From: an uncultured Candidatus Saccharibacteria bacterium
GTDB taxonomy: Bacteria; Patescibacteriota; Saccharimonadia; Saccharimonadales; AWTP1-31
NCBI GenBank assembly: GCA_964530555.1
Contig: CAZHBD010000003.1
Span: forward strand, 1-50,389
DNA: 50,389 nucleotides
Direction: 5' to 3'
Made by a program: the position numbers and the translations under genes. Positions 11,861 through 15,429 of the stretch are shown here, one piece after another. Numbering within the stretch: the first letter of the stretch is position 1; every line of letters starts with the position of its first letter. The notes beneath the pieces were generated by a model. It was not told the DNA's origin. It searched no databases and was given only the letters and a program-made list of their open reading frames with translations.

Positions 11861-12829
11861 ATGTCCAAGCGTACTGCTCCACTGTTATCAATAGTTATAC
11901 CTGTTTATAACGAAGCAGAGGGCTTAATGGCCTTTCACAATTCGTTGGTGTCGGCTCTAGCCGATGTACCGCACTGGGAAGTTATCTATGTTGATGATGG
12001 CAGCAGCGACAACAGTATTGCACTGGTAAAGAGCTTGCACGACGCTGACGCGCGAGTCATGCTGGTCAGCTTGTCTCGAAACTTTGGTAAAGAAAACGCC
12101 CTGACTGCTGGACTGGCAATGGCCAAAGGTGAAGCCATTATTAGCTTAGATGCTGACGGCCAGCATCCTGTCGAGCTCATACCTGATTTTATTGCAGCAT
12201 GGCAGGATGGTCATCGTGTGGTCATCGGTCTACGTCAGAACGAAAGTGGCGATGGACTCAGTAAGGGGCTCGTTTCTCGTGGATTCTACGCGCTAATTAA
12301 TCGCATTTCATCCCAGAAACTGGTTGCAGGAGCAACCGACTTCCGACTAATTGATGTGACGGTGCGTGATGAGTTTCTGAAGCTTACTGAAGTCGATCGA
12401 ATTACTCGTGGACTCATTGATTGGCTGGGCTTCCAGCCGGTGTATATACCATTTCATTCTAAAGACCGTCTGCAAGGTGAGCCGACCTATAACAAACGAA
12501 TGTTAGTTCGTTTAGCGCTCAACAGTGTTGTGTCTCTGACTCCATGGCCACTCTATCTATTTGGTTATCTGGGTATTTTTATTACTACCATTTCATTCAT
12601 CCTGGGCGGTGCGGTCTTTATTGAGCAACTGGTCCTCGAAGATCCATGGGGCTGGAATTTTACCGGTACGGCAATGCTGGGTATTTTGATTCTCTTTCTA
12701 GTTGGGGTGGTACTGATGTCGCAAGGTGTGTTATCAATCTATCTTTCGCACATACACAATCAAAGCAAGCAGCGGCCTTTGTACGTTATCGATTACCAGC
12801 GTTCAGCGGGTATAATAGATAAAACATGA
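11861..12829 (+). CDS. family 2 glycosyltransferase, polyprenyl-phosphate sugar synthase type (GtrB/ArnC/CsbB-like)
   Basis: LSIVIPVYNE, YVDDGSSDNS, LSRNFGKENA and LDADGQHP motifs, plus two C-terminal TM helices typical of GtrB-like enzymes. Confidence 0.85.
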   Translation: MSKRTAPLLSIVIPVYNEAEGLMAFHNSLVSALADVPHWEVIYVDDGSSDNSIALVKSLHDADARVMLVSLSRNFGKENALTAGLAMAKGEAIISLDADGQHPVELIPDFIAAWQDGHRVVIGLRQNESGDGLSKGLVSRGFYALINRISSQKLVAGATDFRLIDVTVRDEFLKLTEVDRITRGLIDWLGFQPVYIPFHSKDRLQGEPTYNKRMLVRLALNSVVSLTPWPLYLFGYLGIFITTISFILGGAVFIEQLVLEDPWGWNFTGTAMLGILILFLVGVVLMSQGVLSIYLSHIHNQSKQRPLYVIDYQRSAGIIDKT

Positions 12830-15429
12830 GCAAGCAAACAAAAGAAAAAGCATATCGAGAAAACAAAATACCAAAACGCAAGTTCGGCTTCTGGAGTTCG
12901 GCGAGTGGCATTTTTACTATCACCGCGATTGTCGTTTTAGTCATAACAAGCGTGATATGGTCCTACTACTCAGCGCGTGTACATATGAATAATGCCGATC
13001 AGCTCGTCAGCCCCTACTTGTTTGAGAACAGTGCTACTTTTCGAGGAGCCGTGTTCCCTACGACTCACACCTTCTTGTTAAAGTGGCCGCTGTTTTGGTT
13101 GCTGGCGCGGTTACAATATAGCCAAGGCGCGTTTATAGCAATAACTGTAGTAAGCGTACTCACTACGTTGGGCACTTTACTATTGCTTGTGCGTTACCTT
13201 GGCAAAAAAAACTCCCAGGCAGTTGGCGTAATAGCTTTTGCACTAGCTGCCATATTATTGTTTGTGCCAATTCAGCCATACCCTGGAGCCTTGTTGCCAG
13301 TGAACCTGGCTATGCTCACTACTCGTAATATAGAATATACATGGTTTATTGCCGCGCTGCTCTTGTGCCTGCAGGCACGCACTTGGGTGCACTGGCGTCG
13401 ATGGGTTGGCGTCGGCTTATTGTCGGTACTTATTGCCAGTGACCGACTATTCATTCCCTTGAGTCTCGGTGCGGTTTTGGTGCTTGCAGTTGTACAGCTG
13501 ATACGGGGGCTGTTTGTCGGTCGGCAAGATCGTTGGCTAAGGCTCAAAACCTTGGCGGGCTGGAGCAGCTGGTCGTTACTGGCAAGTGTCGCGGGTATCT
13601 TGCTTGTAAAAGCACTGAATGTTGTACACGTTTCGCAGTTTAGTTCCGCTTCAGTGAGTACTAGCCCATACGCAGTAGCAACAGGACTGACGACTATTGT
13701 AAAGGGTGGCGTATTTGCAGTTCTTTCAATTGCAACGAATTTTGGAGCAAATCCCTTCTTTGACCTTGCAACCATGCATGACTTTGGCCAGGTTTTTGCG
13801 CATCGTTTAACTGCGCCAACAATAGTCGGTTACGCGGTAAATGGTGCGCTCGCCATCATCATGGTCGTCGTTATGGTGCAGGTTTGGCGTGCCTGGCAAC
13901 GCACCGAACTTCGCAGTCCAAAAAATGATCTAGCAGTGTATTTGTTAGGAGCTTTGGTCGCAGCTGTAAGTGTCTTTGCGCTTTCAAATCACTATTTTCC
14001 TGTTGACGCGCGATACCTGGGCATTAGCTTGTTTGCGGCTATTGTAGGTACAGTTGTGCTATTGGCTAAGCAGCGGTTTGCAATACGTAGCCTCGGTCTA
14101 TATGGGGTGGTAATGATCGCCGTCTGCGGACTCGGACTAAATGCTTTCACTCATAACTATCGGCAGAGTACCGGCGCGCAGCAAATATTGGTTGATCGTA
14201 ATCGTACGGTGGCTGAGCTACTAAAGAGCCATCCGGTTGATACGGTGCTTGGCGATTACTGGAGAGTTTTACCGCTGAAGCACGAGGCCAAGGTTGCCGT
14301 GACTCCAATGGATGGCTGTACTACAGAGCGCGGAGTATTAAGCAGCCAGGCTTGGCGGCCCGATCTGACGCGCCATAGTTTTGCGTATCTTCTCACGCTT
14401 GATAAAGGTTTGACCGACTTCCCACAGTGCAAACTTGATCAGATAACCAACGCGTATGGGCAGCCCAACTCGAGTGTGGTGGTCGATGGTAATGTCGAAG
14501 CGCCCAAAGAAGCAGTTTTGTTTTATGACCGTGGCATCCGGTCTAGCAATAATAGTGGCGTGTTATTAAACCAGAGTGCGTCAACTCTTTTGCCTCAATT
14601 GGTTGCTTCCCAGCCAGCCGTTACCTGCCCAGACGGTAAACCAACAATAATGAATGTGGTGGCACATCAAGACGATGATTTGCTCTTCCAAAGCCCTGAT
14701 TTGCTGCATGATATTAAGGCGGGAAATTGTGTACGCACTGTCTATGTGACTGCTGGAGATGCAGGCGGAAACCGTTTTTATTGGCTAGAGCGAGAGACTG
14801 GATCAAAAGCAGCTTATCTACAGATGTTACAAAAACCCAATGATAGCTGGTATGAAACGGTCATGACAATTGGCAAAAATCAGCATATTACTATTGCTAC
14901 GCCGCAAAACAGCTCTAACGTTTCGCTGGCTTTTTTAAGGTTACCGGACGGTAATACACGGGGCAGCGGGTTTGCTGGCTCGCACTTTGAAAGCCTTGAT
15001 AAGCTAGAGAAAGGCATATTGCCTACTATCCATGCCGTTGATGATCAGTCCGACTATTCTTATGAATCTTTGCAGAATGCGCTTCAAGCCTTATTTAAAC
15101 TCTTTGGACCAAGTGAAGTGCGCACTCAGGCATACCGCAATGCTAACGAGCAGTACCCTGACCATAGTGATCATCGGGCTGTCGGGACATTAGTCAGAAG
15201 TAGTCTTGCGAAAAACAATATAGCAATCAAATACTATGTTGGCTACCCGGTGCACGCGTGGCAGCCAAACGTCTCCAATGACGATTTAAGTGCCAAGTCC
15301 GCCGCCTTCTTTGCCTACGCACAACACGACCCAGGTGTTTGTCGGGACCTTATGTCTTGTCGGCAACAGGGTGTCTATGGTTTCTATCTCGAGAGACAGT
15401 ATGAGCTGACGAACGACCCAGTTGACTAA
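12826..15429 (+). CDS. fusion of a polytopic membrane domain (GT-C-like suspected) with a C-terminal PIG-L/LmbE-family deacetylase
   Basis: ATGA overlap with the GT2 gene. About 470 aa contain many TM helices. The C-terminal domain has VVAHQDDDLLF and YPDHSDHRAVG, the PIG-L metal-binding signatures. Confidence 0.75.
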   Translation: MSKQTKEKAYRENKIPKRKFGFWSSASGIFTITAIVVLVITSVIWSYYSARVHMNNADQLVSPYLFENSATFRGAVFPTTHTFLLKWPLFWLLARLQYSQGAFIAITVVSVLTTLGTLLLLVRYLGKKNSQAVGVIAFALAAILLFVPIQPYPGALLPVNLAMLTTRNIEYTWFIAALLLCLQARTWVHWRRWVGVGLLSVLIASDRLFIPLSLGAVLVLAVVQLIRGLFVGRQDRWLRLKTLAGWSSWSLLASVAGILLVKALNVVHVSQFSSASVSTSPYAVATGLTTIVKGGVFAVLSIATNFGANPFFDLATMHDFGQVFAHRLTAPTIVGYAVNGALAIIMVVVMVQVWRAWQRTELRSPKNDLAVYLLGALVAAVSVFALSNHYFPVDARYLGISLFAAIVGTVVLLAKQRFAIRSLGLYGVVMIAVCGLGLNAFTHNYRQSTGAQQILVDRNRTVAELLKSHPVDTVLGDYWRVLPLKHEAKVAVTPMDGCTTERGVLSSQAWRPDLTRHSFAYLLTLDKGLTDFPQCKLDQITNAYGQPNSSVVVDGNVEAPKEAVLFYDRGIRSSNNSGVLLNQSASTLLPQLVASQPAVTCPDGKPTIMNVVAHQDDDLLFQSPDLLHDIKAGNCVRTVYVTAGDAGGNRFYWLERETGSKAAYLQMLQKPNDSWYETVMTIGKNQHITIATPQNSSNVSLAFLRLPDGNTRGSGFAGSHFESLDKLEKGILPTIHAVDDQSDYSYESLQNALQALFKLFGPSEVRTQAYRNANEQYPDHSDHRAVGTLVRSSLAKNNIAIKYYVGYPVHAWQPNVSNDDLSAKSAAFFAYAQHDPGVCRDLMSCRQQGVYGFYLERQYELTNDPVD

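What the first reader, a model, noticed from the sequence alone, without database searches (positions are those of the whole stretch)
11861..15429. Candidate lipid-linked amino-sugar modification pathway: GtrB-like GT2 coupled to a membrane (GT-C-like) / PIG-L deacetylase fusion
The GT2 has the polyprenyl-phosphate hexose/HexNAc synthase architecture, with a catalytic domain plus two C-terminal TM helices. Its stop overlaps (ATGA) the start of an 867-aa protein. That protein has a large polytopic N-terminal domain with a conserved-looking first loop (NNADQLVSPYLFEN). Its C-terminal domain is LmbE/PIG-L type (AHQDDD, HSDH).

Known three-component systems (GtrABC, ArnC/ArnD/ArnT, GacI/GacL, PpgS/Rv3779) make a lipid-P-sugar, flip it and transfer it to an envelope polymer. 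For some of these, the step that unmasks the amine is carried out by a separate or unknown enzyme. A single polypeptide joining the putative transferase to a de-N-acetylase would produce cationic GlcN/GalN decorations at the site of transfer. I do not recognise this fusion as described.
Basis: partly seen in the sequence, partly recalled or inferred. Interest (0 to 1): 0.6.

Follow-up and report, generated by a model that had tools for sequence, protein, structure and literature searches.

The report
Sugar transferase fused to outside deacetylase
A Saccharibacteria (TM7) genome carries a two-gene unit: one enzyme loads a sugar onto a membrane lipid carrier, and a large fusion protein probably attaches that sugar to the cell surface and strips its acetyl group outside the cell, leaving a positively charged amino sugar; I found no paper on this design.

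Summary
Gene 11861-12829 is a full-length GtrB/ArnC-type polyprenyl-phosphate glycosyltransferase. Its stop overlaps (ATGA) the start of an 867-aa protein.

In that protein:
- Residues 1-570 have a GT-C fold. The best match is ArnT (Z 17); the top 20 matches are all GT-C, then Z drops to 6.5.
- Residues 603-867 have a PIG-L/LmbE fold (Z 16.8), with invariant HxDD and HxDH motifs.

Several lines place the deacetylase outside the membrane:
- the predicted 11-TM topology;
- a five-fold Lys/Arg bias between the two faces of the membrane;
- six invariant cysteines in the soluble half;
- signal peptides or membrane anchors on stand-alone relatives.

In 14 of 17 related genomes the GT2 lies directly upstream, usually with a GtrA flippase gene between the two. 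Elsewhere the same four modules recur in other fusion states: GtrA+GT-C+PIG-L, GtrA+PIG-L, and anchored PIG-L.

[quoted passage not shown] Sugar, acceptor and order of steps are inferred, not shown.

The family is largely restricted to Saccharibacteria, is patchy there, and is absent from the papers I searched. This scan has already flagged the same family on other DNA, in at least 8 other genomes, with the same reading. Specific to this window: there is no GtrA gene in the operon.

The parts
11861..12829 (+). Polyprenyl-phosphate glycosyltransferase (GT2/GT-A, GtrB/ArnC/PgfS-like): cytoplasmic catalytic domain plus two C-terminal TM helices
   Evidence: Pfam PF00535, E 3e-31. NCBIfam full-length matches to PgfS (5e-61) and ArnC (1e-39), both below the equivalog cut-offs. 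PDB GtrB 5EKP, E 4e-54 over residues 8-310. Hydrophobic helices at ~229-259 and ~263-298.
12826..12829 (+). ATGA stop/start overlap coupling the two genes
   Evidence: Read directly from the sequence.
12826..14160 (+). GT-C-fold membrane glycosyltransferase module (aa 1-445): predicted 11 TM helices, N-terminus inside, invariant polar residues in the external loops (N56 D58 Q59; K86; R167 N168 E170; S205 D206; N305/N309; H389 D394 R396 Y397)
   Evidence: AF2 pLDDT 85.7, pTM 0.86. VIA-align: ArnT 5f15 Z 17.0, ALG12 16.3, AglB 14.4, Pmt1/2 14.2, AftA 13.2; the first non-GT-C chain scores Z 6.5. Invariant columns. K+R density 0.275 on the inside against 0.053 on the outside.
14161..14535 (+). Extracytoplasmic alpha/beta middle domain (aa 446-570), in the position of the periplasmic domain of ArnT/PglB/AglB; carries invariant C498 and C535 and the GDYWR motif
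   Evidence: The ArnT alignment runs through residue 569. Weak matches to the AglB and PglB C-terminal domains, Z 5.1-5.4. Invariant residues.
14536..14631 (+). Low-confidence linker (aa 571-602)
   Evidence: pLDDT about 50-56 over residues 570-590.
14632..15429 (+). PIG-L/LmbE (CE14-type) de-N-acetylase domain (aa 603-867, plus the stop codon); invariant H614 D616 D617 D618, D779 H780 D782 H783, a family-specific LPDGN..G.GF loop, and four invariant Cys
   Evidence: Pfam PF02585, 44.7 bits against a cut-off of 28.2. VIA-align: diacetylchitobiose deacetylase 4xm1 Z 16.8 (190 aligned, rmsd 3.3), BC1534 15.9, MshB 15.6, BshB 15.5. Foldseek probability 1.00. Invariance.
11215..11775 (+). Small conserved membrane protein (probable start at M12, position 11248). 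It is a syntenic upstream neighbour in this sub-lineage; a functional link is unproven, so it is listed as a possible accessory only.
   Evidence: No Pfam or NCBIfam family. 92% identical in L040 and 65% in L041, directly upstream of the GT2/fusion. Absent from the other relatives' loci.

Best explanation

Step 1 (family assignment shown; substrate inferred). On the cytoplasmic face, the GT2 transfers an N-acetyl-hexosamine, most likely GlcNAc, from a UDP-sugar to undecaprenyl/polyprenyl phosphate.

Step 2 (inferred). The lipid-linked sugar is flipped. In most relatives an operon-encoded GtrA would do this. In this genome it would be one of three GtrA paralogues encoded elsewhere.

Step 3 (fold, topology and conserved external acidic loop shown; activity inferred). 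On the outer face, the ArnT-like GT-C module of the 867-aa protein transfers the sugar to an envelope acceptor. The acceptor could be a secondary wall polysaccharide, an LTA-like polymer or a surface protein; it is unknown.

Step 4 (fold, motif conservation and outside location shown or predicted; chemistry inferred). The tethered PIG-L domain removes the N-acetyl group outside the membrane, so the final decoration is a cationic GlcN/HexN.

The order of steps 3 and 4 is unresolved. I lean slightly towards deacetylation of the flipped lipid-linked donor (polyprenyl-P-GlcNAc to polyprenyl-P-GlcN) before an ArnT-like transfer.
For: GT2
- Full-length homology to the polyisoprenyl-phosphate glycosyltransferases GtrB and ArnC, including the two C-terminal TM helices.

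GT-C module
- Two AF2 models, pLDDT about 86.
- The top 20 of 48,161 chains are all GT-C, led by ArnT at Z 17.0, then a drop to Z 6.5.
- All invariant polar residues, including D58 six residues after TM1, lie in predicted external loops.

PIG-L domain
- Pfam match above its cut-off and fold Z 15-17 to Dac, MshB, BshB and BC1534.
- HxDD and HxDH are invariant in 36 homologues.

Outside location
- K+R density 0.275 in inner loops against 0.053 in outer loops, across 36 homologues.
- The ArnT periplasmic domain aligns with residues 453-569, and no further TM helix follows.
- Exactly six cysteines, all invariant, in the soluble half.
- Stand-alone relatives of this PIG-L subfamily carry a signal peptide, a single TM anchor, or GtrA (4 TM) plus one extra TM.

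Functional linkage
- The GT2 is adjacent upstream in 14 of 17 genomes.
- GtrA (PF04138) lies between the two genes in most relatives and is fused to the N-terminus in several independent branches.
- L037 has GT2, then a GtrA-PIG-L fusion, then a polytopic protein. L039 has GT2, then a TM-anchored PIG-L, then a polytopic protein.
- PIG-L-less orthologues of the GT-C sit in GT2-GtrA-GT-C operons.

Precedent
- One GtrA can serve several systems (PMC8035078).
- A lipid-linked GalNAc is thought to be flipped and deacetylated by unidentified factors before GT-C transfer in Mycobacterium/Corynebacterium (PMC9671496).
Against: - There is no biochemical evidence for any step.
- The GT2 does not reach the equivalog cut-off of any characterised enzyme, so the sugar is inferred only from the presence of the PIG-L domain.
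- The window's operon has no GtrA. The best own-genome GtrA is only about 30% identical to the operon-type GtrA of relatives.
- In one syntenic relative (L041) no GT2 is adjacent. In 3 of 17 genomes it was not within 1.5 kb.
- Two clades of orthologous GT-C lack PIG-L altogether, so the transferase does not strictly need the deacetylase.
- Actinobacterial relatives of the PIG-L domain are soluble secreted proteins with a DUF7402/F5_F8_type_C domain and no glycosylation genes nearby. That favours a polymer substrate over a lipid-linked one.
- The PIG-L domain has no detectable sequence match to any solved LmbE enzyme, so ligand equivalence rests on motifs plus fold.
- I could not inspect model coordinates. 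Active-site orientation and disulfide pairing are therefore unverified.
Confidence: 0.65

Rival explanations
1. Same machinery, but the PIG-L domain acts only after transfer. The GT-C attaches GlcNAc to the polymer, and the tethered deacetylase then converts polymer-bound GlcNAc to GlcN. This differs from the donor-level order I slightly prefer, but both orders lie within the best explanation's stated scope.
For: - PIG-L-less orthologues work in the same GT2-GtrA-GT-C operon type, so the GT-C can evidently use the unmodified donor.
- Secreted soluble relatives carry a carbohydrate-binding-like DUF7402/F5_F8_type_C domain, which suggests polymer substrates.
- The domain is held on a flexible linker of about 30 residues beyond the periplasmic domain, not at the membrane surface.
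Against: - Characterised LmbE/PIG-L enzymes act on small GlcNAc glycosides, including lipid-linked GlcNAc-PI (family knowledge).
- The closest fold match of the GT-C is ArnT, which uses a free-amine donor.
- In operon contexts the PIG-L domain is always membrane-tethered, once directly to the flippase GtrA.
Confidence: 0.3
2. The PIG-L domain works on a substrate unrelated to the GT2/GT-C sugar, for example peptidoglycan GlcNAc, host-derived chito-oligosaccharides or host surface glycans. On this reading the fusion merely anchors it at the cell surface.
For: - Relatives of the PIG-L domain occur as free secreted enzymes with no glycosylation genes nearby.
- The operon's flanks are peptidoglycan-related in this window and in some relatives: Ddl, DD-carboxypeptidases and VanY.
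- Saccharibacteria live attached to Actinobacteria (PMC10633639).
Against: PIG-L recurs with the same GT2/GtrA/GT-C set in at least four different fusion or adjacency states, including a GtrA-PIG-L fusion. A mere anchor would be unlikely to show this pattern.
Confidence: 0.12
3. The C-terminal domain is not a de-N-acetylase but another LmbE-fold hydrolase, such as an Mca-like amidase or a GalB-like hydratase. It would then trim a different amide or ester (N-formyl, N-acyl or a peptide link) from the sugar or the acceptor.
For: - The LmbE fold also houses the hydratase GalB (5cgz, Z 15.3).
- There is no sequence-level match to any solved deacetylase.
- The subfamily has its own conserved insertion, LPDGN..G.GF.
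Against: The metal and base motifs typical of the deacetylases (HxDD, HxDH) are invariant. The best fold matches are GlcNAc de-N-acetylases.
Confidence: 0.08

Closest known systems
Multi-component (three-component) transmembrane glycosylation systems: GtrB/GtrA/Gtr(type) of Shigella/Salmonella phages; CsbB/GtcA/YfhO and GtlA/GtcA/GtlB of Bacillus/Listeria; GacI/GacJ/GacK/GacL of S. pyogenes (review PMC8035078)
   Same: A membrane-linked GT-A enzyme makes polyprenyl-P-sugar, a GtrA-type flippase is present (in relatives' operons), and a polytopic GT-C transferase has its active site outside. The gene order GT2-GtrA-GT-C is the same.
   Different: - No described system carries a deacetylase module; the review does not mention deacetylation at all.
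- The GT-C here matches no Pfam GT-C family.
- The window's operon lacks GtrA.
Arn pathway for lipid A modification (ArnC, ArnD, ArnE/F, ArnT)
   Same: The GT2 is an ArnC homologue (E about 1e-37 to 1e-39). ArnT is the best structural match of the GT-C (Z 17). The logic is also shared: an N-acylated lipid-linked amino sugar is unmasked to a free amine, which is then transferred to an anionic envelope component.
   Different: - ArnD is a separate CE4-type deformylase acting on the cytoplasmic face before flipping. Here the unmasking enzyme is a PIG-L/CE14 fold, fused to the transferase and predicted to lie outside.
- There is no sequence-level membership in the ArnT family (no Pfam hit).
- The organism is monoderm-like and has no lipid A.
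Arabinogalactan GalN modification of Mycobacterium/Corynebacterium (PpgS, Rv3632, Rv3779)
   Same: A GT2 makes polyprenyl-P-HexNAc with help from a small GtrA-like membrane protein. The sugar ends up de-N-acetylated and is transferred outside by a GT-C (PMC9671496).
   Different: - The deacetylase there is unidentified; here a candidate is fused to the GT-C.
- The PpgS NCBIfam match is only partial (4e-9, far below its cut-off).
- No orthology to Rv3779 was shown.
LmbE/PIG-L de-N-acetylases (PIG-L, MshB, BshB, BC1534, diacetylchitobiose deacetylase, teicoplanin Orf2*)
   Same: The fold (Z 15-17) and the HxDD / HxDH motifs.
   Different: - To my knowledge the characterised members are soluble cytoplasmic enzymes, or face the cytoplasm (PIG-L).
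- This subfamily is predicted extracytoplasmic and disulfide-bearing. It has a roughly 55-residue insertion and is fused to a GT-C.

Membership tests
Polyisoprenyl-phosphate glycosyltransferases (GT2; GtrB/ArnC/DPMS type) | GT-A catalytic domain with a DxD motif | tested here: met
   PF00535, E 3e-31, residues 10-167. D97-A-D99 is visible in the translation.
Polyisoprenyl-phosphate glycosyltransferases (GT2; GtrB/ArnC/DPMS type) | Full-length collinearity with GtrB/ArnC, including the juxtamembrane region and two C-terminal TM helices | tested here: met
   5EKP GtrB, E 4e-54, residues 8-310 against 27-326; ArnC, E about 1e-37, residues 9-311. Hydrophobic helices.
PgfS / ArnC / PpgS equivalogs (NCBIfam) | Score above the curated equivalog cut-off | tested here: not met
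   PgfS 206.6 bits against 500; ArnC 136.5 against 529; PpgS 36.2 against 370. Donor-sugar specificity therefore cannot be assigned.
GT-C glycosyltransferase superfamily | GT-C fold: a polytopic core with a long first external loop carrying juxtamembrane helices | tested here: met
   ArnT Z 17.0 (427 aligned, rmsd 4.8). The top 20 chains are all GT-C; the next chain scores Z 6.5. Confirmed by a second aligner.
GT-C glycosyltransferase superfamily | Conserved acidic residue in the first extracytoplasmic loop | tested here: met
   D58 (in the N-A-D-Q motif) is invariant in 36 homologues and lies six residues after TM1. Residue-level equivalence to ArnT D55 was not checked.
GT-C glycosyltransferase superfamily | Uses a polyprenyl-phosphate-linked sugar donor | not testable with these tools
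   Supported only by the adjacent GT2 (and GtrA in relatives).
ArnT / PMT_2 / YfhO and other named GT-C sequence families | Significant match to the family's sequence profile | tested here: not met
   No Pfam or NCBIfam hit for residues 1-600, even at E 0.1. No PDB sequence hit with the family profile at E 10. This is a separate sequence family of 396 representatives.
PIG-L / LmbE (PF02585, CAZy CE14) | Profile match above the gathering score, and the LmbE Rossmann-like fold | tested here: met
   44.7 bits against 28.2. Z 16.8 to 4xm1, 15.6 to MshB, 15.5 to BshB.
PIG-L / LmbE (PF02585, CAZy CE14) | Metal-binding and catalytic motifs: HxDD near the N-terminus and HxxH near the end of the core | tested here: met
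   H614, D616, D617 and H780, D782, H783 are invariant in 36 homologues. Assignment as Zn ligands is by motif and Pfam register, not by residue-level superposition.
PIG-L / LmbE (PF02585, CAZy CE14) | Zn-dependent de-N-acetylase activity on a GlcNAc glycoside | not testable with these tools
Three-component transmembrane glycosylation system | GT-A, GtrA-type flippase and GT-C encoded together | tested here: inconclusive
   GT-A and GT-C are translationally coupled here. There is no GtrA in the window; three GtrA genes lie on contig C1, about 30% identical to the operon type. In relatives GtrA sits between the two genes or is fused.
Arn pathway | ArnD-type (CE4) deformylase and an ArnE/F flippase | not tested
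   Not searched. The unmasking enzyme here is of a different fold (PIG-L).

The most novel reading that the evidence does not exclude
The PIG-L domain would be the first extracytoplasmic de-N-acetylase of a lipid-linked sugar. It would convert flipped polyprenyl-P-GlcNAc to polyprenyl-P-GlcN at the outer leaflet and hand it to an ArnT-like GT-C. That makes it an outside-the-membrane counterpart of ArnD. It would also provide a template for the still-unidentified deacetylation step of the mycobacterial/corynebacterial arabinogalactan-GalN pathway.
Probability: 0.35. Interest if true: 0.75.

Novelty: new variant of a known kind. Interest (0 to 1): 0.6.

Why it matters
Extracytoplasmic glycosylation systems (GT-A, flippase, GT-C) are well known. 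How free-amine (cationic) hexosamines arise on envelope polymers is much less clear. In the Mycobacterium/Corynebacterium GalN pathway the deacetylating factor was still described as unidentified in 2022 (PMC9671496).

A natural fusion of the transferase to an outward-facing PIG-L domain works as a 'Rosetta stone'. So do the alternative fusions of the same domain to the flippase. Together they nominate a specific enzyme class and a specific cellular location for that step.

The finding also:
- extends the LmbE/PIG-L family, known from cytoplasmic thiol, GPI and antibiotic pathways, to the outside of the cell;
- defines a new sequence family of GT-C enzymes;
- points to surface-charge modification in Saccharibacteria, whose envelope chemistry is almost unknown and whose lifestyle depends on cell-surface contact with host bacteria.

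In this genome no DltB/MBOAT or TagF-type gene was found (90% complete). A GlcN decoration could therefore be a main way of adding positive charge, but that is speculation.

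Tried and rejected
- **Sequence route to a known GT-C family.** Pfam and NCBIfam gave nothing for residues 1-600. The profile of 36 homologues hit no PDB sequence at E 10. Only structure comparison identified the fold.
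- **Sequence route to solved LmbE enzymes.** Neither phmmer nor the family profile found any PDB chain. I therefore could not print a residue-level alignment to MshB or BshB.
- **Foldseek alone.** It gave only weak E-values (about 1e-3) for the GT-C part. VIA-align was needed.
- **Model coordinates.** They are not available to scripts. Disulfide pairing, the orientation of the PIG-L active site relative to the GT-C cavity, and equivalence of D58/K86 to ArnT D55/K85 could not be checked.
- **P0003 as a GtrA substitute.** It belongs to no family. It is conserved only in the closest sub-lineage, and there also next to a fusion gene with no GT2. I treat it as a syntenic neighbour.
- **A conserved downstream partner.** Flanks vary among relatives: Ddl, GT4, DHO dehydrogenase, citrate lyase-like and others. 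The conserved unit is only GT2-(GtrA)-fusion.
- **Actinobacterial PIG-L relatives in the same operon type.** The one Cellulomonas locus examined has no glycosylation genes nearby. A second look-up failed.
- **The polytopic partners in L037 and L039.** They resemble the family only weakly by hhalign (probability 40% and 7%). I call them GT-C-like on the basis of topology and a shared first-loop FDLxGQQ motif only.
- **Literature.** Seven searches and three targeted reads found no description of the fusion. The library lacks most subscription journals, so this is not proof of absence.
- **Complex prediction.** No complex-prediction job was run, because no binding claim depends on it.

Full report
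**What is there**

The window belongs to a 917-kb, 78-contig genome that is 90% complete. The homologues that carry a source name are from Candidatus Saccharibacteria / Saccharimonadales.

ORF 11861..12829 (+, 322 aa) and ORF 12826..15429 (+, 867 aa) overlap by ATGA.

**The GT2**

- Pfam PF00535, E 3e-31.
- End-to-end matches to NCBIfam PgfS (5e-61) and ArnC (1e-39), both far below the equivalog cut-offs.
- Full-length alignment with the solved polyisoprenyl-phosphate glycosyltransferases GtrB (5EKP, E 4e-54, residues 8-310) and ArnC.
- Two C-terminal hydrophobic helices.

It is therefore a GtrB/ArnC-type lipid-carrier glycosyltransferase. Its donor sugar cannot be read from sequence.

**The 867-aa protein, N-terminal module**

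No sequence family matches residues 1-600.

An alignment of 36 full-length homologues (A1, 52% mean column identity) gave AF2 models of the whole protein (pLDDT 85.6, pTM 0.82) and of residues 1-598 (pLDDT 85.7, pTM 0.86).

An exhaustive structural search returned only GT-C enzymes in the first 20 places:
- ArnT, Z 17.0 (427 aligned, rmsd 4.8);
- ALG12, 16.3;
- AglB, 14.4;
- Pmt1/2, 14.2;
- AftA, 13.2;
- then PimE, STT3, PglB, DPY19, EmbB and others.

The next fold scored Z 6.5. Foldseek agreed.

The ArnT alignment runs through residue 569. Residues 446-570 therefore correspond to the periplasmic domain of ArnT.

All invariant polar residues of the membrane part fall in predicted external loops, as expected for a GT-C active site: N56-D58-Q59, K86, R167-N168-E170, S205-D206, N305/N309, and H389-D394-R396-Y397.

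**The C-terminal module**

- Pfam PIG-L lies above its gathering score.
- Residues 603-867 superpose on diacetylchitobiose deacetylase (Z 16.8, 190 aligned, rmsd 3.3), BC1534, MshB and BshB (Z 15.5-15.9).
- H614/D616/D617 and H780/D782/H783 are invariant.
- It is the only PIG-L domain in the genome.

**Topology**

Hydropathy plus the model's helices give 11 membrane crossings, with a Lys/Arg-rich N-terminus.

Across the 36 homologues, K+R density is 0.275 in the loops assigned to the cytoplasm and 0.053 in those assigned to the outside.

The soluble half contains exactly six cysteines in every homologue, all invariant. This is the pattern expected of disulfide-bonded exported domains.

Stand-alone relatives of this PIG-L subfamily (42-52% identity) begin in one of three ways:
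- with a signal peptide (P0267, which also has a DUF7402/F5_F8_type_C domain; P0268);
- with a single TM anchor after a basic N-terminus (P0344);
- with GtrA (4 TM) plus a fifth TM (P0318).

Every architecture puts the domain outside.

**Linkage of the modules**

In 301 sampled genomes of the class, 25 had a match and about 18 had a full-length fused gene. These are spread over at least eight families. Neither of the two other sampled genomes of the window's own family had a match.

The P0001-type GT2 (46-60% identity) lies directly upstream on the same strand in 14 of 17 genomes.

In most of them a 127-149-aa GtrA (PF04138) sits between the GT2 and the fusion. In L007, L011 and L012 it is fused to the N-terminus of the fusion protein.

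A profile search of 1.84 billion representatives found only 396 family members. The 150 best-scoring of these were examined:
- roughly two thirds of them carry PIG-L;
- about nine of them also carry GtrA, scattered over the tree;
- two clades lack PIG-L.

One PIG-L-less clade sits in GT2-GtrA-GT-C operons, with an NTP-transferase gene nearby in both loci and GlmS in one of them. The other sits beside a sortase gene.

Two further arrangements occur:
- GT2, then a GtrA-PIG-L fusion, then a polytopic protein (L037);
- GT2, then a TM-anchored PIG-L, then a convergent polytopic protein (L039).

See for these.

Four modules that keep recurring in different fusion states are strong comparative evidence for one pathway.

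**Specific to this window**

- There is no GtrA in the operon. Three GtrA genes lie on contig C1, and the best is about 30% identical to the operon-type GtrA. Sharing of one GtrA among several systems is documented (PMC8035078).
- A small membrane protein (P0003) is conserved upstream in the closest relatives. It is 92% identical in L040, where the fusion protein is only 63% identical. It is 65% identical in L041, where no GT2 is adjacent. Its role, if any, is open.
- The genome has one LCP ligase and one LtaS-like gene. No TagF-type or MBOAT/DltB gene was found (the genome is 90% complete), so the acceptor cannot be narrowed further.

**Mechanism**

Family assignments, folds, motif conservation, gene coupling and the alternative fusions are shown. 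Topology is predicted consistently by several lines. Substrate (most likely GlcNAc, because characterised LmbE enzymes act on GlcNAc glycosides), flipping, transfer, acceptor and the order of deacetylation and transfer are inferred.

Points favouring deacetylation of the lipid-linked donor:
- the ArnT resemblance;
- membrane tethering of PIG-L in all operon contexts, once to the flippase itself;
- the GlcNAc-PI precedent.

Points favouring deacetylation after transfer:
- the PIG-L-less orthologues;
- the soluble secreted relatives in Actinobacteria.

I lean slightly towards the donor-level order.

**Comparison and novelty**

It is not a sequence member of the ArnT, PMT_2 or YfhO families, nor of the PgfS, ArnC or PpgS equivalogs.

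The 2021 review of these systems does not mention deacetylation. The 2022 corynebacterial study calls the deacetylating factor unidentified. Searches combining Saccharibacteria, GT-C, PIG-L and LmbE found nothing relevant.

I rate it a new variant of a known kind.

Earlier notes of this scan flagged the same family in at least eight other Saccharibacteria genomes, with the same reading. I consulted them only after reaching my own conclusion, and they are not independent evidence.

Noticed in passing
window 11215-11775 (probable start 11248): The small membrane protein P0003 belongs to no family, yet is far better conserved than its neighbours. It is 92% identical in L040, where the fusion protein is 63% identical, and 65% identical in L041. 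It always lies between the UvrD/PD-(D/E)XK helicase-nuclease gene and the GT2/fusion.
   Followed up: partly
L037:1694-3109 (P0318) and L039:5001-6164 (P0344): The same PIG-L subfamily occurs fused to GtrA plus one extra TM helix, or anchored by a single TM helix. Each lies between a GT2 and a polytopic Pfam-less protein whose first loop carries an FDLxGQQ motif. The pathway's modules are shuffled between polypeptides.
   Followed up: partly
L041 (NCBI GCA_964641545.1), syntenic with window ~6000-24000: A syntenic relative keeps ATP synthase, MIP, UvrD-nuclease, the P0003-like gene, the fusion gene, the S11 peptidase, VanY and two GT4 genes. It has no GT2 next to the fusion, and no ATP-grasp pair or CapA-like gene among the called genes of that stretch.
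   Followed up: no
L017/L028 (G257:C2:34470-36922): The fusion gene of this genome appears broken. The main match sits in a 774-aa open frame (753-aa ORF) with one TAA inside it. The N-terminal part is a separate fragment with seven stop codons. It may be a decaying copy.
   Followed up: no
window 15426-18081 (-): Two tandem ATP-grasp ligase paralogues converge on the fusion gene, with a 4-nt overlap of stop regions. In two relatives a D-Ala-D-Ala ligase occupies the equivalent downstream position (L006, L008).
   Followed up: partly
G000 contig C1:35437-36980: The genome's single LCP (LytR-CpsA-Psr) gene lies next to one of its three GtrA genes. An LtaS-like sulfatase-domain membrane protein lies at C1:26868-27662. 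These are candidate routes to the acceptor polymer.
   Followed up: no
L024:491-3093 (G191) and L027:466-2217 (G104): Distant PIG-L-less paralogues of the GT-C module (28-32% identity over the first ~200 residues, 554-583 aa, no Pfam). The L024 copy is translationally coupled to a GT2 that is 31% identical to P0001. Saccharibacteria therefore carry several systems of this unclassified GT-C type.
   Followed up: partly
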